A stretch of 13,122 nucleotides of DNA from a virus, in the UHGV virus genome UHGV-0105863; one strand, given 5' to 3'. The notes below the pieces were generated by a model. The model was not told the DNA's origin. It worked only from the letters and a program-made list of their open reading frames with translations, and searched no databases. The position numbers were made by a program, and so were the translations under genes. How positions within the stretch are numbered: position 1 is the stretch's first letter; each line of letters opens with the position of its first letter. Shown piece by piece: positions 1 through 13,122 of the stretch.

Positions 1-50
1 TCACGAAGTCACCTGTCACTCTGTCAGGCTGCCAGATAAGGATTGAGTAA
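1..50 (+). CDS. 3' end of an upstream late gene running off the window start (gp10-like position by synteny); frame not resolved
   Basis: All three plus frames are open from position 1 to stops at 37-50. Frame 3 ends with TAA at 48-50, overlapping the next ATG (TAATG), which matches the coupling seen elsewhere in this operon. Too short to identify. Confidence 0.25.
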
Positions 51-751
51 TGGTTGATTCATCACTGAATGATCCTGTCGTGGTTCAGGCTACGCGCCTT
101 GATGCTTCAATTTTGCCACGCAATATATTCAGCCAGTCTTACCTGCTGTATGTCATAAATCAGGGTGCTGATGTCGGTGCGATTGCTGGGAAGGCAAATC
201 AGGCTGGTCAGGGCGCTTATGATGCTCAAGTGAAAAACGATGAACAGGACGTCGAACTGGCAGATCACGATTCAAGAATCACCGCAAACACAAAAGCGAT
301 AAATCTCCTTGAGGTCAGGTTAACAACCGCCGAAGGGAAGATAGTCGTACTGCGTAGCGATGTTGATTACTTGCTGGATGAGGTTATCGATATTCAGGCG
401 CATCTGGTCACTGTTGACCAAAGACTGGATGACGTAGAAAACGATGTCTCTGGCATTAAGAGTGATTACGTATCGAAAACCGTAACCGAATTGCAGTCTC
501 TTGCGTCACCGCTGGATGTAAAAACATCATATTCAGTTGATGGAATTCAGGTTGTTGGAGCAAGAAATACCGGATGGACTGCAGCCACAGGTACGCCACT
601 TCTTGGCTCATTCAACGCTAACCAGTCATACACTGTCGGCACTACGTACACACAATCCGAAGTCGCAGCTCTCGCTACAGGTTTGCAGCAGGCGCGGCAG
701 CGTATTCTGGCGCTTGAAACGGCACTTAGATTACATGGGCTGATTGACTGA
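50..751 (+). CDS. Tail needle / plug protein, P22 gp26-like (233 aa)
   Basis: ORF of 233 aa. N-terminus [25 protein letters not shown]..., a central heptad-rich coiled coil, and a C-terminus ...LRLHGLID match my memory of P22 gp26 (also 233 aa). Position immediately upstream of the gp14/gp7/gp20/gp16 block agrees with P22 order. Confidence 0.88.
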
Positions 752-1206
752 TGATTACATTCAAACCAACGCGAAATATCGACCTGATCGAAGCAGTCGG
801 AAATCACCCTGACATTATTGCCGGGAGCAACAACGGCGATGGATACGACTACAAGCCTGAATTCCGTTACTTTGAGGTTAACGTGCACGGGCAGTTCGGC
901 GGAATTGTTTACTATCAGGAGATTCAGCCGCTAACCTTTGATTGCCACGCCATGTACCTGCCAGAGGTTCGTGGCTTCAGCAAGGAAATCGGGCTGGCGT
1001 TCTGGCGATACATTCTGACTAACACCACCGTTCAGTGCGTCACATCGTTCGCCGCACGCAAATTCCGCCACGGGCAGATTTACTGCGCAATGATTGGCCT
1101 TAAGCGTGTCGGAACCATCAAGAAATACTTTAAAGGCGTGGATGACGTGACGTTTTACAGCGCCACACGCGAAGAACTAATCGACTTCCTGAATCACGGG
1201 AGATAG
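751..1206 (+). CDS. gp14-like protein (151 aa), between needle and ejection proteins
   Basis: The ATG overlaps the gp26 stop (TGATG at 749-753), indicating translational coupling. Assignment is by synteny with P22 gene 14; I do not recognise a specific motif. Confidence 0.65.
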   Translation: MITFKPTRNIDLIEAVGNHPDIIAGSNNGDGYDYKPEFRYFEVNVHGQFGGIVYYQEIQPLTFDCHAMYLPEVRGFSKEIGLAFWRYILTNTTVQCVTSFAARKFRHGQIYCAMIGLKRVGTIKKYFKGVDDVTFYSATREELIDFLNHGR

Positions 1207-1208
1207 CC

Positions 1209-1898
1209 ATGTTATATGCATTTAAGCTGGGCAGAAAACTGCGCGGCGAGGAACCTTATTGCCATGAAAAAGGCGGGAAAGGTGGGTCCGATAAAAGCGC
1301 AAAGTATGCAGCAGAAGCTCAGAAGTATGCCGCAGACCTGCAAAATCAGCAGTTCAACACCATCATGAACAACCTGAAGCCGTTTACTCCTCTGGCTGAT
1401 AAGTATGTCGGCAGCCTCGAGAACTTATCGTCTCTGGAGGGGCAAGGTCAGGCACTTAACCAGTATTACAACTCTCAGCAGTATAAAGACCTTGCAGGTC
1501 AGGCTCGCTATCAGAGTCTGGCGGCAGCGGAAGCAACAGGTGGATTGGGTTCCACTGCAACCGGTAATCAGTTAGCAACAATCGCCCCAACGCTTGGCCA
1601 GCAATGGCTATCTGGACAAATGAACAACTACCAGAATCTGGCAAATATTGGTCTTGGCGCACTGCAAGGTCAGGCAAACGCCGGGCAAACATATGCCAAC
1701 AACATGAGTCAGATTTCACAGCAAAGCGCGGCGCTGGCTGCGGCAAACGCCAACCGACCGTCAGCATTGCAGCAGGGGGTTAGTGGTGCTGCATCCGGTG
1801 CGCTTTTGGGTGGTGGCATAGCCAGTGCTCTCGAGCTATCAACTCCGTGGGGTGCTGGTATCGGTGCTGGTCTTGGTCTTCTTGGCTCGTTGTTTTAA
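1209..1898 (+). CDS. Ejection (injection) protein, P22 gp7-like (229 aa)
   Basis: 229 aa, N-terminus MLYAFKLGRKLRGEE...KGGKGG, Q/N/G/A-rich body and a glycine-rich hydrophobic C-terminus, as in P22 gp7 (same length from memory). Start is 2 nt after the gp14 stop. Confidence 0.85.
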   Translation: MLYAFKLGRKLRGEEPYCHEKGGKGGSDKSAKYAAEAQKYAADLQNQQFNTIMNNLKPFTPLADKYVGSLENLSSLEGQGQALNQYYNSQQYKDLAGQARYQSLAAAEATGGLGSTATGNQLATIAPTLGQQWLSGQMNNYQNLANIGLGALQGQANAGQTYANNMSQISQQSAALAAANANRPSALQQGVSGAASGALLGGGIASALELSTPWGAGIGAGLGLLGSLF

Positions 1899-1908
1899 GG
1901 GGTAATCA

Positions 1909-3384
1909 ATGGCTACGTGGCAACAGGGTATTAATTCTGGTGGTTTTCTGGCTGGCATCGGTACGCAAAATGAGAATGCGCCAAAGGCAAGCGACATTAA
2001 CGCAACGCTTGGTCTGATCCGCGAAAACAATGAACTGGCTCGATCAGGTGCAAATAACGTTGGTCTGACCGCGTTACGTGGTCTGGCTGGAGTTGCTGAT
2101 ATTTACAATCAGGAACAGCAACAGAAAGCGATTAGTGCGTTCAATAAGGTTCACGCTGATGCATGGGCTTCTGGTGATCCATCGGGACTATTTAAGTTTG
2201 CCAAGGAAAATCCAGCGTTTGTTGCGCAGGCACAACAGGCGTTTTCCGGTCTTAATGAGCAGCAACGCAACGATATGGGCGATTTAGCCATGAGGGCTAA
2301 CGTCGCTCTTTCTCAGGGACCGGAAGCCTACAGTAAATTCATTACTGACAACAAGGACAGGTTAAATCGCGTTGGTGCTAATGCTGACTGGATGATTCAG
2401 ACAGGTATTCAGAATCCAGAGCAGCTATCACACATGCTGACTACTATGTCTCTCGGTGCACTTGGGCCAGAAAAGGCGTTTGCTGTTCAGGACAAGATGG
2501 CTGGTCGGGATATTGAGCGCGGCGAGTTGGCAGAGACAATCCGCAGCAATAAGGCTGGCGAGGCACTTCAGGCGAGAGGGCAGGATATTAGCCGAGCAAA
2601 TGCGTTAACGTCAGCATATGCACCAACAGCCGCAATGCAGAATTACAATCAGTATGCGCAAATGTTAAAGGCGGATCCAGAGGGGGCAGCGGCATTTGCG
2701 GCAGCGGCGGGAATTAATCCCAACGCTAAGAAATTACTTAAGGTTGAAACCAATCCTGATGGCTCGGTAACTAAGTATTACACCGATGGAAGCGAGGAAG
2801 CCGGAAAACTAAACCAACCTATATCTGGTGATGGTATTAAACCAATTAGCTTGCCACAAGCGCAAAGCATCATAGATAAGGCTAATGAGGGTTCCAAGAA
2901 GGCGGCAGGATTTGCTTTGCGATTAAAAGACTCAATGGACTCAATGAATCAGCTTAGTAAAAGCATTGACCCTAAGCGAGTTGCATTAATAAATCGCTCT
3001 CTTGGTGATGGGACTATTGCAAATTTAAGCCTATCACCAGCGGAGCAGCAATATATGGTAAATGCGAGAGACGCCTTGTATGCAATTTTGCGCCCAGAAA
3101 CAGGTGCAGCAATTACTCTGCCAGAGATGCAGGAGTATTCCAAAATGTACCTGCCTCAGCCTGGTGATTCCATGGCTGCTACTGAAACAAAAATGCGAAA
3201 AATGCAGGGTCAATATAACTCATTACGTGGTCAGTCTGGTCGCGTTTATGATGCTTTGGTGGTTTCAAGTGCTGCAAATAGTCAACAACAGAGCAATAGC
3301 CAACAACCGACAAATACCCAACAGCAGCAGAGTCAATCCGGATCATATACCTCAAAATCAGGCATTCAATTTACGGTGGAATGA
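1909..3384 (+). CDS. Ejection protein, P22 gp20-like (491 aa)
   Basis: Long ORF in the position of P22 gene 20, preceded by GGGG 6 nt upstream of the ATG. Ends in a Q/S/N-rich low-complexity tail. The stop overlaps the next gene's start. Confidence 0.8.
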
Positions 3385-5222
3385 TGAAAGTAACTGCAAA
3401 CGGTAAGACATTTACCTTCCCTGATGGTACGAGCACGGAAGATATTGGCACCGCCATTGATGAGTATTTTGCTGGTCAGGCTGTTCAGCAACAAACAGTT
3501 AATCAGGCCAATAATGAACCAGCACGTGAAGAACCATCATTGATGCAACAAGCTGGCGATTGGCTCACAGGTGGTCAAAGTGCAGGGCAAATTGCAGAGC
3601 AGGCTGGTCGTGGTCTGGTAAACATACCATTTGACGTATTGCAGGGCGGCGCAAGCCTGATTAATGCAATCAGTCAGGGGCTTGGTGGGCCAAAAGTATT
3701 GGATGATGTTTATCGTCCAGTAGACAGACCGACAGACCCCTACGCGCAAGCCGGTGAAACAATTGGTGGGTATTTAGTTCCAGGAGTTGGAACGGCAGGA
3801 AGCATGGCTATTGGATCACTGGCAGAGGCCGCAAATCAGAAAGGTGATTTCGCACAAAATGCAGCTAAAAATGCCGGAGTTAACCTTGCCGCTCAGGGTG
3901 TTCTTTCCGCAGCAGCAAAGGGAATAGGGCGTGGAATAACGGCTATAAAAGGTGATATTGCGCCAGAAGTGGCGAAGAAAATTGCCACATCAGAATCGAT
4001 GGGCGTGACACCAATGACATCTGATGTTATCCCGCCGAAAAACGCTTTCACTCGCGGACTTACTCAGGATGCTGAGGGGGCTTTGCTCGGGACAGGCTCA
4101 AAGCGAGCGGAGCAATATGCAACGCGTAGTAAGCTGGTAAGTAATTATTTTGACCGTTTTGGTGAGTACAACCCTGATGATGTGGTGAAATCTCTTACCA
4201 CCACGTTAAGGGGGCGGAAGGATGCCGCTGGCGCTGTTATCAATGACGTCACCAATAAAATGGGTAATGCCGCAGTTGATACCACAAATACCATGAATGC
4301 TCTGAATACAGCGATCGCAAGACAGGAACGGCTTGGGACGTCTGCCAATCAAAGCCTGCTTACATCCTTGCGTAACCTACGTGAAGAATTAGCAAACCCT
4401 GCAACTGATTTGGATGTTACGTTTGATCTCTTGCGTCAGCACAGAACAGCATTTAGATCTAATGTTCAGGGAGATGCTATGGTCTTCCCCAACCAGGCAA
4501 AAGCAGCTACCAATATGGTAGAGAATGCAATGTCAAAAGACCTTCGTAATGCAGTTGCTAAAAACCTCGGTGCATCAGACGCAGCAAAATACCTTAAAGC
4601 AAATTCCGATTATGCAAACGTTTATAATAAGGTGCTTAATAAAAACATTGCCAACAAGCTCAACAAGGCAAGCAGTGAAGCCAGTCCTGAACTTATAAAT
4701 ACCGTTGTATTAAGCAGAAAACCATCTGACGTGAAACGAATCTGGAGCGCACTGGATGATAAGGGGAAAGATGCTATGCGTGCAGCTTACGTCAGCAAAA
4801 TAGCGGAAAAGGCCGGGTACTCTCCAGCCAAGTTCATCACTGAAGTTAATAAGCTGAAATCTCAGTCAGGCGGTGAAATTTACAACACTATTTTTTCTGG
4901 AAAGCACATGAAAGAGCTTGATGCTCTTCATGAAGTTCTACAGCAAACAGCAAGGTCAGACACCGCAAATGTAGTAACTCAGACGGGGCAATCGCAAGCC
5001 AACAGGATAAGGACGATTGGCGCAACTGCGACCCTTGGCGTATCAATGGGGCTTGAGGCTGGTTTTGGTGCAATGATGCGCTTGTATGAGTCCAAAGCAG
5101 CAAGGAATGCTCTCTTACGTCTGGCAAACACTAAAACTGGAACGCCAGCCTATGAAAGAGCATTAAGTAACGCTGCAAATGCCATCAGACCGCTGCTTGC
5201 CACTGAGGCAACACAGCAGTGA
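3381..5222 (+). CDS. Ejection protein, P22 gp16-like (613 aa)
   Basis: ATGATG at 3381-3386 overlaps the gp20 stop TGA at 3382-3384. Size and position match P22 gp16 (about 609 aa from memory). Last gene of the ejection-protein block. Confidence 0.85.
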
Positions 5223-5239
5223 CTAAATGCCATGGATGG

Positions 5240-5428
5240 TTATTTCCTTAGCACATGAAACAATGTTTGCTTTAATTCCACCCATACAATTATGACCACT
5301 ATAGACAGACAAAAGAAACTGAATGCATTGGCATCACGATCGAAACCTTCTCCGGCACTAAATCCGTAAAAGGTCATAAAAAATATAAAAATTGCGCACT
5401 TTGCAACGTTTACAAATTTTTTCTTCAC
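5240..5428 (-). CDS. Small predicted membrane protein (62 aa, two hydrophobic segments), GTG start
   Basis: In-frame GTG at 5428-5426 (minus strand) is preceded by a perfect AGGAGG (plus 5434-5439), 5 nt upstream. Translation is VKKKFVNVAKCAIFIFFMTFYGFSAGEGFDRDANAFSFFCLSIVVIIVWVELKQTLFHVLRK. The 134-aa version in the ORF track would run antisense through the HExxH gene and has no RBS. Confidence 0.5.
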   Translation of the reverse strand: MKKKFVNVAKCAIFIFFMTFYGFSAGEGFDRDANAFSFFCLSIVVIIVWVELKQTLFHVLRK

Positions 5429-5458
5429 ACCAACCTCCTTAGTTTTGAGCAGGATACC

Positions 5459-5824
5459 ATGAAAAAAGTTAACATTGGAAACGTACCAAAGATGCTCGTT
5501 CCGCTCTTTGAGAGCGGTACAATTGTGTTTTGTAGAGACTTTCCAGAATGGCAACGCCTGCATCAAAAACTTGGTGTGGACGTGCAGGACTCGGATGCCA
5601 ACGGAGCGTCTCATACAATGAGCAGCGAGAATGGTGTTTTGCATGTGATAGGCGTGTTCAATGGCAAACTATCTACTATTGCCCATGAGTGCGCTCACAT
5701 GGCATTCGATATCTGCTCAAGGGTCGGTGTTGATGTTGAACCAGGAAGAGCCAACGAGACTTACTGCTACTTAATGAGCAGGCTTGTTGAGTTCTGCGAG
5801 CGACATATCAAAAAGCCGGAGTGA
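5459..5824 (+). CDS. HExxH zincin-like small protein (121 aa), putative metallopeptidase-fold
   Basis: ATG at 5459 with AGGA 4 nt upstream. Contains IAHECAHMAFDI (an HExxH motif) with glutamates about 20-25 residues downstream (VEPG, NETY) that could act as the third metal ligand. Stop lies inside a hairpin followed by a T-rich tract. Confidence 0.7.
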   Translation: MKKVNIGNVPKMLVPLFESGTIVFCRDFPEWQRLHQKLGVDVQDSDANGASHTMSSENGVLHVIGVFNGKLSTIAHECAHMAFDICSRVGVDVEPGRANETYCYLMSRLVEFCERHIKKPE

Positions 5825-5846
5825 CCCGGCTTGATTATTACTTTTT
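5808..5846. terminator. Hairpin between convergent genes, candidate bidirectional terminator
   Basis: AAGCCGG (5813-5819), 6-nt loop, CCGGCTT (5826-5832). Downstream on plus is GATTATTACTTTTTG. On minus only about 3-5 U follow the stem, so it is weaker in that direction. Confidence 0.45.
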
Positions 5847-6017
5847 GCTGTCTGGAGTTCGCTTATCTAATACCCAGCCATGACCTGGCTGTGTTGTTGG
5901 CGGAAGCCTTTCGTTGTCCTTGACGGTGGCAAAATTGTCTTTCTTACCGCCGCGCGGGCCAACCTCTTGGTATATTCCGCCGTTTTTTCCTGTGTTTTCA
6001 CCTGGTTTTTTCGCCAT
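5838..6017 (-). CDS. YjzC-like small protein (59 aa)
   Basis: ATG at 6017-6015 (minus) with GAGGT 7 nt upstream. MAKKPGENTGKNGGIYQEVGPRGGKKDNFATVKDNERLPPTTQPGHGWVL... matches my memory of the YjzC-like small protein family (G-x-Y-x-E-V-G ... P-x-T ... G-x-W). The MLRYI start at 6032 in the ORF track has no RBS. Confidence 0.6.
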   Translation of the reverse strand: MAKKPGENTGKNGGIYQEVGPRGGKKDNFATVKDNERLPPTTQPGHGWVLDKRTPDSKK

Positions 6018-6094
6018 GATATACCTCAACATACACCCGTTATTGGGCGATTAAATATTGATCTCATTTTATAAGTAGTCAATATGGCCCAGGC

Positions 6095-6126
6095 AAATGA
6101 AAAAATTAACCAGCCATCAGGCTGGT
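6095..6126 (-). terminator. Rho-independent terminator for the minus-strand secreted-protein gene
   Basis: ACCAGCC (6109-6115), loop ATCA, GGCTGGT (6120-6126). On the minus strand the hairpin is followed by UAAUUUUUUCAUUU. It sits directly after the stop codon at 6128-6130. Confidence 0.6.
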
Positions 6127-6127
6127 A

Positions 6128-6310
6128 TTAGTCACATTCTATTTCTTTTGTCGAGGTCCATACATAAGGATCTGAGCAAACAACCTCTCCATTTATCATG
6201 ACGTCATAGCCCATTAGATATGAGTTACCACCAACAACCTGGGCGGCGATGACGCTAATGCTGGCGGCGCAGGCTGCACCAAAAACGAAACCAATTAATA
6301 TATTTTTCAT
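6128..6310 (-). CDS. Small exported protein (60 aa) with N-terminal signal peptide and two Cys in the mature part
   Basis: [24 protein letters not shown] is a signal-peptide-like N-terminus without a canonical lipobox. The mature part of about 36 aa has Cys at positions 45 and 59. The gene has its own terminator. Confidence 0.55.
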
Positions 6311-6341
6311 TTTGATTCCAAATAGTTATAGGATGAAAGTT

Positions 6342-6527
6342 ATGACCATAGAAGAACGCCTGAACAACATTGAGTTGAACCAAACCTTGCTTGACCAGCG
6401 ACTTTCAGATCTTGAGCTTAAAGATCTAGATGCGCAAATATCAGAAGCAGAAGCCAAGCTCTCCAGCTTAAACCACCGTAAGAAGCAAATCCGCAACAGA
6501 ATTACTCAGGGACGCGGAAGCTGTTGA
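6342..6527 (+). CDS. Small coiled-coil protein (61 aa); alternative start at 6333
   Basis: AGGA at 6330-6333, 8 nt before the ATG at 6342. Translation MTIEERLNNIELNQTLLDQRLSDLELKDLDAQISEAEAKLSSLNHRKKQIRNRITQGRGSC has heptad-like L/I spacing. The 3' end overlaps orf69 convergently by 26 nt, so reality is uncertain. Confidence 0.4.
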   Translation: MTIEERLNNIELNQTLLDQRLSDLELKDLDAQISEAEAKLSSLNHRKKQIRNRITQGRGSC

Positions 6528-6711
6528 GGTGGGATGCTAGGTCTCTATCGTTAAAATCAAGGCTGCTAATCATTTCATTGTAAATGGCGTTTTTATCTTC
6601 CATTGGCAGTCTTGAGTAAACCAGACACAGAGCATATTTCAGGGAGTTTAGCTCTTTCTCTAGCTCTTCCTTGCTTGACGTTGTTGACTTAATAAACTGT
6701 TTTTTATTCAT
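6502..6711 (-). CDS. Hypothetical 69-aa protein, translationally coupled downstream of mnt
   Basis: Its ATG (plus 6711-6709) overlaps the mnt stop (ATGA), and AAGGA lies 6 nt upstream inside the mnt 3' end. Translation MNKKQFIKSTTSSKEELEKELNSLKYALCLVYSRLPMEDKNAIYNEMISSLDFNDRDLASHLNSFRVPE is acidic and helical. Confidence 0.6.
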   Translation of the reverse strand: MNKKQFIKSTTSSKEELEKELNSLKYALCLVYSRLPMEDKNAIYNEMISSLDFNDRDLASHLNSFRVPE

Positions 6712-6959
6712 TTTGCATCCTTACCATACATGGTCTTTAGCGTCTCAACATCGTGTTCAAGATCTATCAATCGTGATGCTATAGTTGCAAGGTCTAGTGC
6801 TTGAATGTGTTTATTTTTTTCGGTCCACGCTTCAAGTGCCGCGACCATCTCAGCATTTAATGAACGAGAATTAGCCTCAGCCAGTTCAATAAGACGTTCC
6901 TTTATCTCTACAGGAAGCCTCAGATTCACTTGAGGGTTTTTGTACTTACGATCAGACAT
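6708..6959 (-). CDS. mnt: Mnt-like ribbon-helix-helix repressor (83 aa), maintenance-of-lysogeny repressor of the immI region
   Basis: 83 aa, the same length as P22 Mnt. The N-terminal RHH signature NLRLPVEIKERLIELAEANSRSLNAEMVAALEAW is followed by a helical C-terminus. It is divergent from arc-ant, as in P22 immI, with AGGA 7 nt before the ATG. Confidence 0.85.
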   Translation of the reverse strand: MSDRKYKNPQVNLRLPVEIKERLIELAEANSRSLNAEMVAALEAWTEKNKHIQALDLATIASRLIDLEHDVETLKTMYGKDAK

Positions 6960-6987
6960 CGGCGCATCCTGAATAATTTTTTACCAC

Positions 6988-7016
6988 AGGATATGTAGGT
7001 ATCTATTGACTATCAA
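6988..7016 (-). promoter_or_regulatory. Candidate Pmnt (minus strand): TTGATA, 17-bp spacer, TATCCT
   Basis: The -35 is the reverse complement of plus 7011-7016 and the -10 is the reverse complement of plus 6988-6993. It lies about 20-30 nt upstream of the mnt ATG. The -10 is weak (4/6). Confidence 0.35.
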
Positions 7017-7025
7017 TGCGTACCT
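6997..7025. promoter_or_regulatory. Imperfect 29-bp palindrome AGGTA-n3-ATTGA-CTA-TCAAT-n3-TACCT, candidate repressor operator (Omnt-like)
   Basis: Read directly from the sequence. Centred at 7011, it covers the -35 of Pant and the -35 of the candidate Pmnt. The outer AGGT half-site recalls the P22 Omnt half-site (from memory). Confidence 0.4.
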
Positions 7026-7034
7026 AAATACTAT
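7006..7034 (+). promoter_or_regulatory. Pant-like sigma70 promoter: TTGACT, 17-bp spacer, TACTAT
   Basis: -35 at 7006-7011 and -10 at 7029-7034, about 30 nt upstream of the arc ATG. The -10 is flanked by two copies of ATGCGTACC (7016-7024 and 7037-7045). Confidence 0.55.
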
Positions 7035-7064
7035 GTATGCGTACCACATACAACGGAGGATGCA

Positions 7065-7205
7065 ATGAAGGTAAAAACACTGCGTATGCCAGAGAAGCTA
7101 GAAAAAATTCTTGAAGAAAAAGCAAAGGAAGAGTGTCGCTCATTCAGCGCAGAAGTAATTAAACGGGTGCTGGACAGCCTGAGGAGAGAGGGGATAACGG
7201 TGTGA
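7065..7205 (+). CDS. arc: Arc-like ribbon-helix-helix repressor (46 aa)
   Basis: GGAGG 6 nt upstream of the ATG at 7065. MKVKTLRMPEKLEKILEEKAKEECRSFSAEVIKRVLDSLRREGITV aligns by eye with P22 Arc (..RWPREVLDLVRKVAEENGRSVNSEIYQRVMESFKKEG..). It is below the 60-aa cutoff of the ORF track. The frame is intact. Confidence 0.8.
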   Translation: MKVKTLRMPEKLEKILEEKAKEECRSFSAEVIKRVLDSLRREGITV

Positions 7206-7227
7206 TTCGCTTGGATGCGGCAAAGAA

Positions 7228-7303
7228 ATCAAAACAGTGAAGCCCCAACTGCTGGAACAGTTAGGGCTTCGGTATCGTAAAACCACGCATAGGAATTAAC
7301 GAC
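7228..7303 (-). ncRNA. sar: sar-like small antisense RNA covering the ant ribosome-binding site and start codon
   Basis: A minus-strand promoter sits just inside ant, with a predicted start near plus 7303. The minus-strand terminator is a hairpin GAAGCCC/GGGCTTC (7239-7270, with inner stem AACTG/CAGTT) followed on the minus strand by ACUGUUUUGAUUUCUUU. Predicted length of about 70-75 nt matches P22 sar (about 69 nt from memory). Confidence 0.5.
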
Positions 7304-8227
7304 ATGAAAAGTATAGCAACAGCAGTATCTACTATCAATGTACCATTCCACGGCGCAGAGCTTTATGTTGTCAATCACAACGGCGAACCGTATACCCCAA
7401 TGAAACCTATCGTTGAGGGAATGGGGCTAGACTGGAAATCTCAACATAAGAAGATTTCTCAACGCTTCTCGAAGGGTATGGTGGAAATCACCATACCTTC
7501 TGCCGGTGGGGTGCAAGCCATGATTTGTATGGCTTTACGAAAATTGGCAGCTTGGTTGAACAGCATCAGTCCTAACAAAGTCCGCCCTGAAATCCGCGAC
7601 AAGGTAATCCAGTATCAGGAAGAGTGTGACGATGTGCTCTACGAGTACTGGACTAAAGGCCATGTAGTTAACCCACGCAAAGCTAAAAAGGCGTTGCCGG
7701 GTAAAATCACCACTGAACAGCAGGAAGCCATTAAACAACTCGTCATGAGTCGCGGTCAGTCTCTGCCAAAAGAAAAACAGGCGAAGGCGATGATCACCAT
7801 GTGGTCGTCACTGAAATCCCATTTTGGATGTTCGTACAAAGAAATCAGTGATGAGCAGTTTACCGAAGCACTGTCACTTGCTGCTCGCGTTCCGCTTGAA
7901 GGTGAGTTCATTGGCAAACAAGAGAAGAAAACCAACGAGCTTTCTGCAAAAGAAGCAAACAGCCTTGTATGGCTATGGGATTATGCCAACCGCTCACAGG
8001 CATTATTCCGCGAATTGTATCCGGCGCTAAAACAAATTCAATCGAACTATTCCGGCAGATGTCATGACTGCGGTTATGAGTTCTCCCGTATTATCGATAT
8101 GGCGAGAGACGTTTTAATCAATCACACACGAGATGTTGATATCAATGAGCCAGACGGACCAACGAATCTTTCCGCATGGATGAGACTTAAGAATAAAGAA
8201 TTACCTCCTTCAGTACATAACTACTGA
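7304..8227 (+). CDS. ant: Ant-like antirepressor (307 aa)
   Basis: Lies directly downstream of arc, as in P22 immI. Size is close to P22 Ant (about 300 aa). The N-terminal region resembles the phage antirepressor N-domain by memory. AGGA lies 9 nt before the ATG. Confidence 0.75.
   Translation: MKSIATAVSTINVPFHGAELYVVNHNGEPYTPMKPIVEGMGLDWKSQHKKISQRFSKGMVEITIPSAGGVQAMICMALRKLAAWLNSISPNKVRPEIRDKVIQYQEECDDVLYEYWTKGHVVNPRKAKKALPGKITTEQQEAIKQLVMSRGQSLPKEKQAKAMITMWSSLKSHFGCSYKEISDEQFTEALSLAARVPLEGEFIGKQEKKTNELSAKEANSLVWLWDYANRSQALFRELYPALKQIQSNYSGRCHDCGYEFSRIIDMARDVLINHTRDVDINEPDGPTNLSAWMRLKNKELPPSVHNY
7310..7338 (-). promoter_or_regulatory. Psar-like promoter on minus strand: TTGATA, 17-bp spacer, TATACT
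   Basis: The -35 is the reverse complement of plus 7333-7338 and the -10 is the reverse complement of plus 7310-7315. It is near-consensus and fires leftward across the ant start codon at 7304. Confidence 0.5.
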
Positions 8228-8245
8228 CAGATAACCAACGCAACG

Positions 8246-8270
8246 ACCCAGCTTCGGCTGGGTTTTTTTA
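8246..8270 (+). terminator. Rho-independent terminator after ant
   Basis: ACCCAGC (8246-8252), TTCG tetraloop, GCTGGGT (8257-8263), followed by seven T. A textbook intrinsic terminator. Confidence 0.8.
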
Positions 8271-8327
8271 TGCCAAAAATTCACCGTAGCCATGCTGCGG
8301 CCATTCCTTGTATCTGGAGCAAATCAA

Positions 8328-10673
8328 ATGACAGATTCAATAAATGCCAATGTTGTAGTGAGTATGCCTTCGCAACTCTTCACTATGGCTCGTTCTTTTA
8401 AAGCTGTAGCCAATGGCAAAATTTATATCGGTAAAATTGACACTGACCCGGTAAACCCTGAAAACCAGATTCAGGTTTATGTAGAGAACGAAGACGGTTC
8501 TCACGTTCCTGTTTCGCAACCAATCATCATTAACGCTGCTGGATATCCGGTATATAACGGACAGATTGCCAAGTTCGTTACTGTGCAAGGGCATTCTATG
8601 GCTGTTTATGATGCGTATGGTGCTCAGCAGTTCTATTTTCCTAATGTGCTAAAGTATGATCCAGATCAGTTTAGGCAGCAGCTTGCAGTAGTTGATAGCA
8701 ATGTATTGATTTCTGGTGTTCCAGCAAAAGATGTTGTAAATGCCAAAACTGGACGAGCACCAGTAGTTATGACTCGAAAAGTTACAGACCTTCTTCTTGA
8801 TGGTAAGGCTGGGTTGCGTAAAAACTTTGGTGCTGTAGGCGATGGTAGTCATGACGATACACAGGCATTTAATGATCTGTGGGATGCGCTTATGGATCCG
8901 ACATATAAACGCCGCGCAATAGAAACAGACGAGGTTGGTCTGCCATTTATGATACAAAAAGGCCCAGCACTTCTAATTGAAAATGGAACGTTTATTTACA
9001 ATGGGCCTGGTCTCAATATTGAAACATCAGATTCATTTGTATTTAACATATCAGGTGAGAGCAGTATTTCAACAAAGATACTTTTACCAGATGGAGTATA
9101 CCTATTCGATTTCGATAATAACCCTGTTCATGCATATCTAGGGAATATGTCAATTCATGGTGGTAAAGGTGCTGTTCGATACAAATCAAAAGAACGATCA
9201 ACTAACAGCATTCACCTTTTCGAAAATCTTCGCCTGTCGAGATACAAGGAGTGTGGCATAGGGAATAATTCAATCGATATGCCGTATTTCCGAGTGAAGG
9301 GATGCATGTTATACGGGGACCCAGCAAGCCAGACTATTGGTATTTGTGTCTCTGGTTACTCTGCTGGCGGCTTCATTGAGGACTGTGTTATCAGCGACAA
9401 TAGATATAATATAAAACTGGCAGTTGGTGATAATGGCGTGGAGCGTAATGGCCCTGCAACGCCTTTCTATGTCTGCAGGAACGACATGTACCGCACGGGG
9501 CGACGAGCGCCATCAGCATCGTATGACATATGGATTGAGCCTGGTGCTACTACCATCAACTCTGGGAGAGGTATTCAGATAATCCAAAATAAATTTGGGC
9601 AAGAAAACCTAATCGCACCAGATACTCATGTTTTGATCGCAGATGCTGCCGCTACAGGGAGCGGGTTAAATCTCAATGGAGATCGCGCTCATATAGAAAC
9701 ACAGTCAGTTGGTTTTGTGTCTGGCTTACGTTTCGAGGGGAATAACGTAAACTCAGCTAATAGTGGATATATTGCCCCTTTCATTCGCTCATTTACGCCA
9801 AACCTTGGAAATAACAAAATAAATGACCTTTATGACAATGACATGCCAGCAAGAATCATAGAGTTCGCGGGTGGCATAACCCAAAGTCAAATGACTAACC
9901 TTTCACGTACCAACGTCTTTAGTGCAGCCCAATGCATTGCGCTTCAGAAGGGTGTTGAACCTAAGTTGTTATCTAACCTTAATGATGTCTTCCGGCTTGA
10001 GGATCCTTTGGGGTTCTACGTCGGGCATCCTCAAGCTCAGGTTTTACCGTCAGGTTCTCAGCAGATTGGATTTGAATTGATCTACTCTGGGCCGACGTCG
10101 ACGATTGGGGTGAGTAACGCAACAAGATTATCGGTAAATAACTCATATGGAGGGATATCGGAAGCAACTGAAATCACAATGACCGCTTCTGATGGCGTGG
10201 CAGTTGCCACTGTTGTTGGCGGACTTGCTGGTAGGAAGCACTGGATTGATTTCGAGCTTAAGCGCGGGACAACAAACCCTGTTGGTTCTGTTGTTGTGGA
10301 GATAATGGATGCTTCCGGGTCAGTTCTCCAACTTCGTCGTATTATTTTAATAGACACTTTTCCACGCTGGCAGAAAGTCGCCATTCCTTATGTTCCAAAT
10401 GAAGACGGTAATATTGTAGTCAAATTCAGATCTAATCTTTATTCGGCTGGAACGGCAACTAACTTTATTGTCGGAAATCTCAATGTTTACAGGAATGAGG
10501 AGCGAGTCAATACAGGGCATAACTCAGGATTGAGGATGCAATGGAATCTACAACATACCGTAAGAGGTACAAGACACGAGTGGTATGACGCGTCAGGTAA
10601 TTTACGCTCCAAAAATGGGGTGCCGAGTGGGGATGCCGATGGGGTAATCATTAGCGCTAACCCAACATTGTAA
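8328..10673 (+). CDS. Tailspike protein (781 aa): P22-type head-binding N-terminal domain fused to a right-handed beta-helix receptor-binding domain
   Basis: Start taken at ATG 8328 ([12 protein letters not shown]...) with GGAG 8 nt upstream; the ORF-track start at 8292 adds 12 residues absent from P22 gp9. The first ~115 residues (..[34 protein letters not shown]...[14 protein letters not shown]......VLKYDPDQ) match P22 gp9 from memory. Downstream is unrelated and contains [19 protein letters not shown], a typical pectate-lyase-fold motif. Confidence 0.9.
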
Positions 10674-10736
10674 AAATTTGATCTTCGCATAGCTAGAAGT
10701 TACTGTATATAAAAACAGCATTGTGAGGTTATAGAC

Positions 10737-10976
10737 ATGATCAGACGCAACATAATTTCGGAGGCTTTCAGAGCCTCCATTTCTATAAATCCTAAAGGTT
10801 ATCAATACCTTTACACGCATTCTTTCATCTCCGAACTACAGAGGATGGGTATCAATTTCTCAGAAGAGGAGGCTAACAACTGGATATCGAGAGAGCAGAC
10901 TTACTTTGTTGACAAAACCACCGACCATAGCGAAAACCGCCTGTGGATGCTGGCCAATATGGGTAGGGTTCTCTGA
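10737..10976 (+). CDS. Hypothetical protein (79 aa) downstream of tailspike
   Basis: ATG with GAGG 9 nt upstream. No recognisable motif. Sits where P22 carries its conversion genes. Confidence 0.45.
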   Translation: MIRRNIISEAFRASISINPKGYQYLYTHSFISELQRMGINFSEEEANNWISREQTYFVDKTTDHSENRLWMLANMGRVL

Positions 10977-11905
10977 TGTGATTTCCATCACCGGCGTCCG
11001 ACTACGTCGAGCAGCTACTGTCCGTTAACTCGATATGCAATGTTGGTCCTAACACATTGTTGCTTGAAACCAGTGGTGGATATGCCGTGGTTGATGTCTC
11101 TCTGAAACTTAAGCAGAGATGTCAGGTGATGGTCTGCTATGAAGCACATAATCAGATAGCGAAGCTTATGGGGAAATCTTTGATAACGGAGGATGGAGAG
11201 GCGATCGAGGGAGAGGCCCTGGATGATGTCACCGTTGCCGTCGTGGTGACGCATATTATCGTGGATGTGAGAAGTGACAGCGTAGCAGTATAAGGCAGAC
11301 CCACAATCAGGGACTACCGATTTTGATTACTCCACCTTTTCATCAAGCCAATCTGCCCACCATTGCATCATTTCTCTGCATTTATCGTAGTTGATGCAAC
11401 ACTATCACACTGTAATAGCTTATTACTGGTTTGCAGACAGGTAGGCATGAACAGATACCTGCGCATGAAGACGGAACTAGTCCAGATGTGATATTTGTGG
11501 TGATCACATACATCATCAACGATGCTCGTTATGGTGAGTTTGATGACTACCCACTGAAGTGAAAATTGTGTTGTGTACCAAATTGCGTACCAAACTAAAA
11601 TCACAAATTATGAAACCCTTGTTCATGGCGGCTCTCAGGGGTGTTGCGCGTAATCGTGAAACAAAAAGGTAGATTGTTGCTTACCGTCATTCATCATTAG
11701 GTTAAATCCGTTATTTCTGCTGTCTGCCAGAGTATCAAATATCACCGTGCTAATCAGCTTTAGCGCGACAATTTGGCAGCGAGTGACAACAGATCATGTC
11801 AGATAAAAATGAGATAGTAGTCACATTTTCTTGCACTTTATTCCAGCCAGTTCATAAGTATTTCCGTAAAAAGAACAGCTATTTGAAACACCTGAGGGTT
11901 TGCTG

Positions 11906-13072
11906 TTGAAACGCCGTCTTATTATTGCTGCTTCTTTGTTCGTTTTTAATTTATCGTCTGGTTTTGCGGCGGAAAACATTCCTTTTTCACCTCAGCCTCC
12001 AGAGATTCATGCCGGGTCCTGGGTATTGATGGATTACACCACCGGTCAGATTCTCACTGCGGGTAATGAGCATCAACAGCGCAATCCCGCCAGCCTGACA
12101 AAGCTGATGACGGGCTATGTCGTGGATCGCGCTATCGATAGTCATCGCATTACGCCAGACGATATTGTCACCGTGGGGCGTGATGCGTGGGCGAAAGATA
12201 ATCCGGTGTTTGTCGGTTCTTCACTGATGTTTTTGAAAGAGGGCGATCGCGTATCGGTACGTGATTTAAGCCGAGGTTTAATTGTGGATTCCGGAAATGA
12301 CGCTTGTGTTGCTCTGGCTGACTATATTGCCGGTGGGCAACGGCAGTTTGTTGAAATGATGAACAACTATGCCGAGAAGCTGCATCTCAAGGATACGCAT
12401 TTTGAAACAGTGCATGGTCTGGATGCACCTGGCCAGCATAGCTCGGCTTATGATTTAGCCGTGCTTTCTCGCGCTATCATCCACGGCGAGCCCGAGTTTT
12501 ATCATATGTACAGTGAGAAAAGCCTCACCTGGAACGGTATCACCCAGCAAAACCGTAACGGGTTATTGTGGGATAAGACCATGAATGTTGACGGCCTGAA
12601 AACGGGCCATACTTCTGGTGCCGGGTTTAATCTTATTGCTTCGGCTGTAGACGGGCAGCGTCGCCTCATTGCAGTGGTAATGGGTGCTGACAGCGCAAAA
12701 GGTCGTGAGGAAGAGGCAAAAAAATTACTGCGTTGGGGGCAACAAAACTTTACTACGGTGCAAATTTTGCACCGTAGGAAAAAGGTCGGTACGGAACGCA
12801 TCTGGTATGGTGATAAAGAAAATATCGCCCTGGGAACGGAACAAGAGTTCTGGATGGTGCTACCGAAAGCCGAAATTCCACATATCAAAGCCAAATATAC
12901 CCTTGATGGTAAAGAGCTCACCGCGCCAATTAGCGCCCATCAGCGGGTAGGGGAAATTGAACTTTACGACCGTGATAAACAGGTGGCGCACTGGCCGCTG
13001 GTTACCCTGGAATCTGTCGGGGAAGGCAGCATGTTTTCTCGCCTGAGTGATTATTTCCACCATAAGGCCTGA
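11906..13072 (+). CDS. dacD: D-alanyl-D-alanine carboxypeptidase DacD (PBP6b), host chromosomal gene
   Basis: Start taken at TTG 11906 (MKRRLIIAASLFVFNLSSGFA signal peptide) with GAGGG 7 nt upstream, giving 388 aa; the ORF-track start at 11900 gives 390 aa. Contains the class A PBP motifs SLTK (SxxK), SGN and KTG. I recognise the sequence as enterobacterial DacD. Confidence 0.9.
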   Translation: MKRRLIIAASLFVFNLSSGFAAENIPFSPQPPEIHAGSWVLMDYTTGQILTAGNEHQQRNPASLTKLMTGYVVDRAIDSHRITPDDIVTVGRDAWAKDNPVFVGSSLMFLKEGDRVSVRDLSRGLIVDSGNDACVALADYIAGGQRQFVEMMNNYAEKLHLKDTHFETVHGLDAPGQHSSAYDLAVLSRAIIHGEPEFYHMYSEKSLTWNGITQQNRNGLLWDKTMNVDGLKTGHTSGAGFNLIASAVDGQRRLIAVVMGADSAKGREEEAKKLLRWGQQNFTTVQILHRRKKVGTERIWYGDKENIALGTEQEFWMVLPKAEIPHIKAKYTLDGKELTAPISAHQRVGEIELYDRDKQVAHWPLVTLESVGEGSMFSRLSDYFHHKA

Positions 13073-13122
13073 CCTTTCTTTTGCAGCAGACTGGCAGGAG
13101 TGCGAGTCTGCTCGCATAATCA

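What the first reader, a model, noticed from the sequence alone, without database searches (positions are those of the whole stretch)
10674..11905. Prophage-chromosome junction directly upstream of dacD, with no O-antigen conversion genes and no tRNA
In P22 the tailspike is followed by the gtr conversion genes and then the attachment site (from memory). Here it is followed by a single 79-aa ORF and about 0.9 kb with no convincing gene, then dacD. In Escherichia coli K-12 the gene divergent from dacD is sbcB (from memory), and no sbcB-like minus-strand ORF is present. So the prophage end, and the att site, should lie between about 11000 and 11900. I searched for a tRNA T-loop motif and found none, so integration here is probably not tRNA-targeted.
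Basis: partly seen in the sequence, partly recalled or inferred. Interest (0 to 1): 0.5.

Follow-up and report, generated by a model that had tools for sequence, protein, structure and literature searches.

The report
Prophage right end at sbcB site
This is the right-hand junction (attR) of a P22-like prophage inserted into the start of the E. coli sbcB gene next to dacD, a phage attachment site already described for phages 2851 and Sf101, so it is ordinary.

Summary
A tailspike gene ends at 10673, a 79-aa ORF follows (10737-10976), dacD starts at 11906, and the window has no tRNA or O-antigen conversion gene.

The junction can be placed exactly. Prophage-free E. coli genomes match the window only from 11649 onward. 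The 13-bp core CGTAATCGTGAAA (11649-11661) is the published attP/attB core of Stx phage 2851 and Shigella phage Sf101, and it lies in codons 13-17 of sbcB. The first 16 sbcB codons remain at attR (11649-11697, minus strand). In lysogens with an identical right end, the phage supplies a substitute sbcB 5' end at attL.

About 10% of complete E. coli genomes (571 of 5426) carry this same attR.

The "0.9 kb with no convincing gene" is not empty. It contains:
- a LexA box (10703-10718) in front of ORF79;
- a short UmuD'-like gene coupled to ORF79, knocked out here by TGA at codon 2 (10976-11293);
- a fossil 3' end of an argW-type integrase (11327-11387);
- a fossil HumD 3' end (11431-11562);
- two arm-type integrase sites (11573-11594).

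The only lead worth following is the uncharacterised SOS-box ORF79/UmuD'-like operon.

The parts
8292..10673 (+). Tailspike gene with the P22-type head-binding N-terminal domain. It is the last virion gene of the prophage.
   Evidence: PF09008 Head_binding, E 2e-65. PGAP calls it 'phage head-binding domain-containing protein' in identical DNA, with a start equivalent to 8331.
10701..10720 (+). LexA (SOS) box TACTGTATATAAAAACAGCA. The CTG-N10-CAG core is at 10703-10718, 18 nt upstream of the ORF79 start codon.
   Evidence: It is the only CTGT-N8-ACAG in the window. The same 16-mer lies between dacD and sbmC just past the window end. 75 of 80 viral contigs with an ORF79 relative have CTG-N10-CAG within 90 nt upstream, with 20 different spacers.
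10737..10976 (+). ORF79, a conserved phage protein of unknown function (phrog_3893) with a predicted winged-helix-like fold. It is the first gene of the SOS-box cassette.
10976..11293 (+). Short UmuD'-like gene (105-aa family). It has ATG at 10976-10978, a TGA nonsense codon at 10979-10981, then an open frame to TAA at 11291-11293. It is probably inactivated in this window.
   Evidence: phrog_3469 'UmuD-like', E 5e-40, and NCBIfam HumD, E 2e-6, below cut-off. Intact alleles start M-GFPSPA, which aligns with UmuD residues 25-66. Eight of 9 contigs with the identical ORF79 carry TGA and one carries GGA. None of 77 viral relatives has a stop there.
11327..11387 (-). Fossil of the last roughly 17 codons of an IntS/argW-type integrase (...REMMQWWADWLDEKVE*). 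It is the recombination joint where the integration module was swapped.
   Evidence: It matches the C-terminus of the intact 385-aa integrase in sister prophages L008/L010/L011/L013, which sit at tRNA-Arg(CCU). The same fossil occurs in mEp234 and Sf101. PGAP calls it 'integrase, partial' in LAM_HS.
11431..11562 (+). Fossil of the C-terminal 44 codons of a HumD-family gene, embedded in the P arm of attP.
   Evidence: NCBIfam NF051876 HumD, positions 85-128 of 129, E 3e-11. PGAP annotates it as a partial HumD/S24 pseudogene in three other genomes.
11573..11594 (+). Two tandem candidate arm-type integrase binding sites, GTGTACCAAA and GCGTACCAAA, in the P arm.
   Evidence: They are the only exact matches in the window. 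Three more copies in the same orientation lie in the P' arm between the core and int in the proxy lysogen. The sites are conserved in mEp234 and Sf101.
11430..11648 (.). Conserved P arm of the 2851-type attP. It is phage DNA shared by otherwise unrelated prophages at this site.
   Evidence: Most of the 614 genomes with a match to 10674-11661 match from 11430 onward. 571 of 5426 genomes have 11430-11900 contiguous. It is 91-92% identical to mEp234, 2851 and the Stx phages and 89% to Sf101, in records annotated 'attP type 2851'.
11649..11661 (+). 13-bp att core CGTAATCGTGAAA (attR copy). This is the exact prophage-chromosome crossover region.
   Evidence: It occurs once in the window and twice, 37,268 bp apart, in the proxy lysogen. 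It is identical to the published attP of 2851 and Sf101 and to the annotated 13-bp site of mEp234. Prophage-free genomes align from 11649.
11649..11697 (-). Native sbcB 5' remnant: the start codon at 11695-11697 plus 16 codons, left behind at attR.
   Evidence: It translates to MMNDGKQQSTFLFHDY, identical to K-12 SbcB residues 1-16, then AQHP*. K-12 sbcB overlaps the match by 49 nt.
11698..11905 (.). Native sbcB-dacD intergenic region (208 bp), which is host DNA.
   Evidence: It is collinear with K-12 L002 2550-2757. It is 97.3-99.7% identical in the prophage-free genomes listed (H5-H29).
11906..13072 (+). dacD (PBP6b D-Ala-D-Ala carboxypeptidase), the first host gene.
   Evidence: Peptidase_S11, E 9e-105, and PBP5_C. 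PGAP annotation.

Best explanation
Window 10674-11905 is the right end and attR of a roughly 37-kb P22-like (Lederbergvirus, CUS-3/HK620-related) prophage. [quoted passage not shown]

Shown:
- The crossover lies within the 13-bp core CGTAATCGTGAAA (11649-11661), which is sbcB codons 13-17.
- To its right is native host DNA: the sbcB start, the sbcB-dacD intergenic region and dacD.
- To its left is the P arm of a '2851-type' attP.

Shown only in proxies (XJW9B263 and the circular form in EM03-18-08):
- The other junction carries the same core, a P' arm with three more arm-type repeats, and a 392-aa integrase with an arm-binding domain that is 99% identical to mEp234 Int.
- It also carries a phage-encoded substitute sbcB 5' end (MTDTDKQPTFLF... 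in place of MMNDGKQQSTFLF...), so sbcB stays intact in the lysogen.

Inferred:
- Int binds the GYGTACCAAA arm repeats and the core, in a lambda-like intasome.
- The small HTH protein next to int is the excisionase.
- This phage lineage acquired the sbcB-targeting module by recombination at the 3' end of an argW-type integrase gene. About 60 nt of that gene remain at 11327-11387.

Between the tailspike and attP, where P22 has gtr and Sf101 has oacB, this phage carries a LexA-box-controlled two-gene operon: ORF79 plus a short UmuD'-like gene. The second gene is disabled here by a nonsense codon.
For: Junction:
- 5418 of 5426 E. coli genomes match the dacD side. All prophage-free genomes listed (H5-H29) match the window from 11649.
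- K-12 shows sbcB overlapping the match by 49 nt.
- attB, attL and attR read directly share only CGTAATCGTGAAA.
- The core is unique in the window and occurs exactly twice, 37,268 bp apart, in XJW9B263.

Known site:
- The Sf101 paper gives the same 13 bp as the attP of 2851 and Sf101, with integration into the sbcB 5' end.
- mEp234 and HK544 records annotate 'attP type 2851' on the homologous bases.
- Int is 388/392 identical to mEp234 Int and has Arm-DNA-bind_3 and Phage_integrase domains.

Other support:
- Arm repeats in both arms.
- sbcB reconstitution (PGAP calls sbcB intact).
- Excised circle: EM03-18-08 has both the integrated copy and a 39,096-bp circular record that joins this P arm to the core, P' arm and int.
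- Module swap: sister prophages have an identical tailspike-ORF79-umuD' module followed by an intact IntS-like int and tRNA-Arg(CCU). Homology with the window ends at 11387.
Against: - The window's own genome is not among the complete E. coli genomes searched. attL, int and the substitute sbcB 5' end are therefore read from two proxies that are identical to the window only over the right end.
- The P arm here lacks 67 bp present in mEp234 and Sf101, about 220 bp from the core. Its effect on excision is unknown.
- No exact IHF consensus site was found in the arm.
- The circular record lacks one C at its circularisation point. This is probably an assembly artefact.
- Binding of Int to the arm repeats and the identity of Xis are inferred, not tested.
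Confidence: 0.93

Rival explanations
1. The DNA between the UmuD'-like gene and the core (11294-11648) is not part of this phage. It would be the leftover of an older, different prophage (a lambdoid or Stx phage of 2851 type) that once occupied sbcB, with the P22-like element sitting beside or inside that remnant.
For: The stretch contains two gene fossils, an integrase 3' end and a HumD 3' end. It is shared with unrelated siphoviral and Stx phages.
Against: - The same fossils in the same order lie next to attP in the phage genome records of mEp234 and Sf101, which are not chromosomal loci.
- They are also in the 39-kb circular excised form in EM03-18-08. They therefore travel with the phage's attP module.
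- In the proxy lysogen the matching core, P' arm and 2851-type int sit at the opposite end of one continuous P22-like genome.
Confidence: 0.04
2. The element is a fixed, non-excisable prophage remnant, and the junction is no longer a functional attR.
For: The P arm has a 67-bp deletion relative to mEp234 and Sf101. The accessory UmuD'-like gene has a nonsense codon. The left part of the window's own prophage was not seen.
Against: - The core and the proximal roughly 220 bp of the arm, including both arm-type repeats, are intact and near-identical to those of mEp234, Sf101 and phage 2851.
- A strain with 100% identical attR DNA also yields a circular 39-kb form.
- All virion genes visible in the window are open.
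Confidence: 0.1

Closest known systems
Shigella flexneri phage Sf101 (Lederbergvirus; Jakhetia et al. 2014, PMC4159516)
   Same: It is a P22/Sf6-like podovirus with the identical 13-bp attP core. The paper reports its integrase as 99% identical to mEp234's, which is itself 99% identical to the one here. [quoted passage not shown] The layout is the same: tailspike, accessory gene, int fossil, P arm, core, int.
   Different: Sf101 carries the O-acetyltransferase oacB in the slot after the tailspike. This phage carries a LexA-box ORF79/UmuD'-like cassette there and has no O-antigen conversion gene. The tailspike receptor-binding part differs, and this P arm lacks 67 bp.
Stx2c phage 2851 and other sbcB-integrated Stx phages (1717, Stx2a_WGPS, etc.); coliphages mEp234 and HK544 ('attP type 2851')
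   Same: They have the same attP arm (about 91-93% identity over 11329 or 11481 to 11661), the same core and the same integrase family. The chromosomal site is the same, so the attR sequence next to dacD is the same.
   Different: They are lambdoid phages with long tails and different virion and cargo genes (stx, side tail fibres). Only the integration module is shared.
P22 / Sf6 / CUS-3 / HK620-type integration at tRNA genes (thrW, argW)
   Same: The virion module is the same, 94-95% identical to CUS-3 and HK620 over parts of 1-8680. Sister prophages with the identical tailspike-ORF79-umuD' module are integrated at tRNA-Arg(CCU) with an IntS-like integrase.
   Different: Here the tRNA-targeting module has been replaced. 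Only about 60 nt of that integrase's 3' end remain (11327-11387), and the target is a protein-coding gene whose 5' end the phage replaces.
Phage P1 HumD / E. coli UmuD' (for the accessory gene at 10976-11293)
   Same: Intact alleles begin M-GFPSPAxDYVEQR, exactly at the residue where RecA-mediated cleavage creates UmuD'. They sit behind a LexA box. P1 humD being LexA-controlled is from memory.
   Different: The protein is only 105 aa and scores far below the HumD family cut-off (46 versus 120 bits). It has Val where UmuD has the catalytic Ser60. It is always translationally coupled to an upstream 79-aa protein. In this window it is interrupted at codon 2.

Membership tests
2851/Sf101-type attP-attB system (integration into sbcB) | 13-bp core CGTAATCGTGAAA at the phage-host crossover | tested here: met
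   An exact match lies at 11649-11661 and is unique in the window. It is identical to the published core and to the mEp234 annotation.
2851/Sf101-type attP-attB system (integration into sbcB) | The target is the 5' end of sbcB, with host sequence resuming at the core | tested here: met
   Prophage-free genomes align from 11649. sbcB codons 1-16 lie at 11649-11697.
2851/Sf101-type attP-attB system (integration into sbcB) | Direct repeat of the core at the other prophage end, next to sbcB | tested here: inconclusive
   This is met in proxy XJW9B263, which is identical to the window from about 9001 on: cores at L001 9448-9460 and 46716-46728. The window's own left end is outside the window, and its genome is not in the collections.
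2851/Sf101-type attP-attB system (integration into sbcB) | Cognate tyrosine integrase about 99% identical to Int of 2851, mEp234 and Sf101 | tested here: inconclusive
   388/392 identity to mEp234 Int in the proxy lysogen. The same int sits next to attP in the circular form L101. It cannot be seen in the window itself.
2851/Sf101-type attP-attB system (integration into sbcB) | Homologous P arm adjacent to the core | tested here: met
   11329-11661 is 89-92% identical to Sf101, mEp234 and 2851.
tRNA-targeted integration (P22 thrW, Sf6/CUS-3 argW type) | tRNA gene or tRNA 3' fragment at the junction | tested here: not met
   ARAGORN finds no tRNA in the window, and there is no Rfam hit. Sister prophages do have tRNA-Arg(CCU), but this one retains only a roughly 60-nt fossil of that integrase.
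O-antigen conversion module (gtrABC / oac) after the tailspike | GtrA/GtrB/Gtr-specific glucosyltransferase or acyltransferase ORF between the tailspike and att | tested here: not met
   The only ORFs there are ORF79 and the UmuD'-like gene. There is no such annotation in the proxy prophage.
HumD / UmuD' family (gene at 10976-11293) | Full-length match to the HumD or UmuD model above the curated cut-off | tested here: not met
   The intact allele scores 46.3 bits against a cut-off of 120 for HumD, and 31.8 against 110 for UmuD. There is no Pfam Peptidase_S24 hit.
HumD / UmuD' family (gene at 10976-11293) | N-terminus equivalent to the post-cleavage UmuD' (GFPSPAADYVEQR) | tested here: met
   Intact alleles align with UmuD 25-66 and UmuD' 1-42. 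The motif is present in 77 of 80 relatives. In the window the frame reads FPSPASDYVEQ after the TGA.
LexA regulon operator | CTG-N10-CAG palindrome overlapping the promoter, conserved among relatives | tested here: met
   10703-10718. 75 of 80 relatives have it at the same distance, against a chance of about 0.02 per locus. LexA binding itself cannot be tested here.

The most novel reading that the evidence does not exclude
The one part not already described is the cassette in the slot between the tailspike and attP. It is a LexA-box operon encoding a 79-aa winged-helix-like protein, translationally coupled to a 105-aa catalytically dead UmuD'-like protein.

The second protein starts exactly at the UmuD cleavage site. 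The pair also exists as a single fused polypeptide in at least one relative.

The most novel reading is that this is a 'genetically pre-cleaved' LexA/UmuD-like two-part protein. Temperate phages of Klebsiella and E. coli would express it only during SOS to tune host Pol V, RecA or LexA activity, or prophage induction, without needing RecA-mediated cleavage. In this window the second half is a nonsense allele, and that allele has nonetheless spread across several prophage backgrounds.
Probability: 0.15. Interest if true: 0.5.

Novelty: already known. Interest (0 to 1): 0.12.

Why it matters
The junction itself adds little. sbcB is a catalogued phage integration site with a published 13-bp core, and it is occupied in about one in ten complete E. 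coli genomes.

It is useful in three ways:
- **Annotation.** It fixes the prophage boundary to the base. It also shows that sbcB is not lost in such lysogens, because the phage replaces its first 12 codons.
- **Module exchange.** It gives a clean example of integration-module swapping in P22-like phages. The same tailspike and accessory-gene module is found with either an argW-tRNA or an sbcB integration module. The recombination scar is a 60-nt integrase fossil.
- **An untested operon.** The widespread SOS-box ORF79/UmuD'-like operon has no assigned function and is cheap to test.

Tried and rejected
- **tRNA and ncRNA.** ARAGORN on the window and Rfam on 10600-12000 found nothing.
- **Other ORFs in the gap.** The minus-strand ORFs 11015-11254 and 11368-11604 were rejected as genes. 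The first lies antisense to the conserved UmuD'-like frame. The second spans a 67-bp indel, not a multiple of 3, relative to mEp234 and Sf101. Neither has a Pfam hit.
- **XJW9B263 as the source genome.** I first assumed this and then rejected it. Identity holds only for the right part of the window, and no complete genome covers at least 80% of it.
- **IHF site.** No exact consensus (WATCAANNNNTTR) occurs in the P arm.
- **Promoter and terminator scan.** Scans of 10500-12000 and of the attL region gave nothing above shuffle expectation.
- **Gifsy-1 genes.** I considered that the cassette might be the Gifsy-1 STM14_3218-3220 SOS determinant. It is unrelated: those are a ParA-like ATPase plus two genes of unknown function in the immunity region.
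- **Literature.** Searches for the ORF79/UmuD'-like cassette found no description.

Full report
**1. Observation**

The window ends with typical P22-like virion genes.
- An injectosome gene, an Arc-like gene and a P22-type antirepressor are present.
- The tailspike ORF at 8292-10673 carries the P22 head-binding domain (PF09008, E 2e-65).
- A 79-aa ORF follows at 10737-10976.
- dacD (Peptidase_S11 + PBP5_C) runs to 13072. Its annotated start in identical DNA is 11906.
- ARAGORN finds no tRNA in the window. Rfam finds nothing credible in 10600-12000.
- There is no gtr or oac-like ORF.

The description is therefore accurate. Two details need correcting; see sections 2 and 4.

**2. Where the junction is**

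A megablast of 10600-13122 against 5426 complete E. coli genomes matched 5418 of them.
- All prophage-free genomes listed (H5-H29), including K-12 MG1655, match from query base 1050, which is window 11649.
- In K-12 the match begins 49 nt inside sbcB, which is divergent from dacD.

I read attB (K-12), attL (a lysogen) and attR (the window) side by side. The only sequence common to all three is CGTAATCGTGAAA, at window 11649-11661.
- It occurs once in the window.
- It occurs exactly twice, 37,268 bp apart, in the lysogen XJW9B263. One copy is next to sbcB and a tyrosine integrase. The other is at the position equivalent to the window's.

On the sbcB strand the core is codons F13-H14-D15-Y16 plus the first base of E17.

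The window keeps the native sbcB start. The minus strand of 11649-11697 encodes MMNDGKQQSTFLFHDY, then runs into phage DNA and stops after AQHP. So "no sbcB-like ORF" is nearly right, but a 16-codon remnant is there.

**3. This site is already known**

- The Sf101 paper (PMC4159516) states that a 13-bp sequence 5'-CGTAATCGTGAAA-3' upstream of int is identical to the attP of Stx2c phage 2851. [quoted passage not shown]
- GenBank records of mEp234 and HK544 annotate "prophage attachment site (type 2851)" on the homologous bases.
- The phage-side arm 11329-11661 is 91-92% identical to mEp234, 2851 and several Stx1/Stx2 phages, and 89% to Sf101.
- The integrase of the proxy lysogen is 388/392 identical to mEp234 Int. 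It has an arm-binding domain plus a catalytic domain.
- In 571 of 5426 complete genomes (10.5%), the stretch 11430-11900 (P arm, core, sbcB remnant, intergenic region) is contiguous. This attR is therefore common.

**4. Caveat on proxies**

The window is not from XJW9B263. That genome is identical only from about 9001 onward and mosaic upstream. No complete genome covers at least 80% of the window.

The left junction is therefore inferred from two proxies.

XJW9B263:
- The order is sbcB, core, 214-bp P' arm, int, xis-like HTH gene, and so on to the tailspike, ORF79, the UmuD'-like gene, attR and dacD.
- The lysogen's sbcB is annotated intact. It begins MTDTDKQPTFLFHDYETFG, against MMNDGKQQSTFLFHDYETFG in K-12.
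- So the phage brings a diverged copy of the first 12 codons and presumably a promoter. No consensus promoter was found in the attL region.

EM03-18-08:
- Its assembly contains the integrated copy, with attR 100% identical to the window.
- It also contains a 39,096-bp circular record that is the excised phage.
- The circle joins bases identical to window ...11648 to the core, the same P' arm and int.
- One C is missing at the circularisation point. This is probably an assembly artefact.

Phages with this right end can therefore apparently still excise.

**5. Anatomy of attP (partly inferred)**

- GTGTACCAAA and GCGTACCAAA lie in tandem at 11573-11594. They are the only exact matches in the window.
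- Three further copies in the same orientation lie in the P' arm between the core and int.
- This 2 + 3 arrangement resembles the arm-type sites of lambda attP (from memory). The sites are conserved in mEp234 and Sf101. Int binding is inferred.
- No exact IHF consensus was found.
- The window's arm lacks 67 bp present in mEp234 and Sf101, about 220 bp from the core. This also shows that the minus-strand ORF 11368-11604 is not a gene.

**6. What fills the "0.9 kb with no convincing gene"**

*(a) LexA box, 10701-10720.* The sequence is TACTGTATATAAAAACAGCA.
- The 16-mer CTGTATATAAAAACAG is the only CTGT-N8-ACAG in the window.
- It is identical to the 16-mer between dacD and sbmC just beyond the window. 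sbmC being SOS-regulated is from memory.

*(b) ORF79, 10737-10976.* It belongs to phrog_3893, of unknown function.
- It has 195 unnamed protein clusters in Klebsiella and E. coli.
- It has only 69 representatives in 1.8 billion cluster representatives.

*(c) UmuD'-like gene, 10976-11293.* It is a member of a 105-aa "UmuD-like" family (phrog_3469, E 5e-40).
- Intact alleles start M-GFPSPAxDYVEQR. This aligns with UmuD from Gly25, the first residue of UmuD'. A Val sits at the Ser60 position.
- They score well below the HumD and UmuD family cut-offs.
- In the window, codon 2 is TGA (ATG 10976-10978, TGA 10979-10981). The frame then stays open to 11293.
- Eight of 9 contigs carrying the identical ORF79 share this TGA, including a recombinant with a different 3' allele. 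One has GGA.

*(d) The cassette in other phages.* I examined 80 IMG/VR contigs with an ORF79 relative.
- 75 have CTG-N10-CAG within 90 nt upstream, with 20 spacer variants. Naive chance is about 0.02 per locus.
- 77 have the UmuD'-like ORF starting 1 nt before the end of the ORF79 stop codon.
- None has a stop at codon 2.

One relative (P0175, 178 aa) is a fusion of both domains. Its junction ...SLM|GFSSPAADF aligns with UmuD' 1-78 (E 1e-12).

The cassette is thus a conserved, uncharacterised SOS-box operon. The window's copy of the second gene is most likely a pseudogene.

*(e) Integrase fossil, 11327-11387 (minus strand).* It encodes ...REMMQWWADWLDEKVE*.
- This is the exact C-terminus of an intact 385-aa IntS-like integrase found right after the same tailspike-ORF79-umuD' module in sister prophages.
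- Those prophages are integrated at tRNA-Arg(CCU), next to a formate/nitrite-transporter family gene.
- Homology with the window stops at 11387 (H138).

*(f) HumD fossil, 11431-11562 (plus strand).* It is the last 44 codons of a HumD-family gene (NF051876, E 3e-11). PGAP annotates it as a partial pseudogene in other genomes.

Both fossils also sit beside attP in the mEp234 and Sf101 phage genome records and in the circular form. They therefore belong to the phage's attP module and not to an older resident prophage.

**7. Mechanism**

- Shown: the exact crossover, the target gene, the shared attP module and its frequency.
- Shown in proxies: the second core copy, the integrase, sbcB reconstitution and a circular excised form.
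- Inferred: a lambda-like intasome built on the arm repeats; Xis identity; and the history in which an argW-targeting module was replaced by the sbcB-targeting one, through recombination near the 3' end of int.

**8. Verdict**

The junction lies at 11649-11661, inside the predicted interval. It is not tRNA-targeted, and there is no conversion gene.

The feature is an already described attachment site, so its interest is low.

The only open item is the function of the SOS-box ORF79/UmuD'-like operon. I found no description of it in the literature searched.

Noticed in passing
window 10701-11293: A LexA-box operon, ORF79 (winged-helix-like, phrog_3893) translationally coupled to a 105-aa catalytically dead UmuD'-like protein, fills the slot where P22 or Sf101 carry O-antigen genes. 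It is conserved in 75-77 of 80 viral contigs, and one relative is a natural fusion of the two domains. No function has been described.
   Followed up: partly
window 10976-10981: The UmuD'-like gene has TGA as codon 2 (ATG-TGA) with the rest of the frame open. The same nonsense allele is in 8 of 9 contigs with the identical ORF79. These include prophages at other att sites and a recombinant with a different 3' allele, so the allele has spread rather than being a private mutation.
   Followed up: partly
window 11327-11387 (minus strand): A 60-nt fossil of the 3' end of an IntS/argW-type integrase. Sister prophages with the same tailspike-ORF79-umuD' module have the intact integrase and sit at tRNA-Arg(CCU). 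This marks an integration-module swap, and the same scar is present in mEp234 and Sf101.
   Followed up: yes
window 11431-11562 (plus strand): A fossil of the last 44 codons of a HumD-family gene lies inside the conserved P arm of the 2851-type attP. It appeared only as a partial pseudogene in the three other genomes whose annotation was checked.
   Followed up: yes
window 11635-11697 (minus strand): The native sbcB promoter and start codon remain at attR and now head a 20-codon orphan ORF (MMNDGKQQSTFLFHDYAQHP*) that reads into the prophage end. Whether it drives antisense transcription across the P arm is unknown.
   Followed up: no
L101 (NZ_CP063485.1, 39,096 bp, deposited as 'plasmid pEM03-18-08_2'): This record is annotated as a plasmid but is the circularised, excised form of a P22-like phage with the same attP. 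It coexists in the assembly with the integrated copy at sbcB/dacD.
   Followed up: partly
window 8680-10673: The receptor-binding part of the tailspike, beyond the conserved head-binding domain, has no near match (megablast) in the phage collection. Similarity to CUS-3 and HK620 ends at about 8680. Its glycan target is unknown.
   Followed up: no
window 5240-6711: Several small ORFs lie between the last ejection-protein gene and the Arc-like gene (the immI/superinfection-exclusion area of P22-like phages). They have no Pfam match and differ from the proxy prophage, which carries a Rap1a/Tai-family immunity gene there.
   Followed up: no
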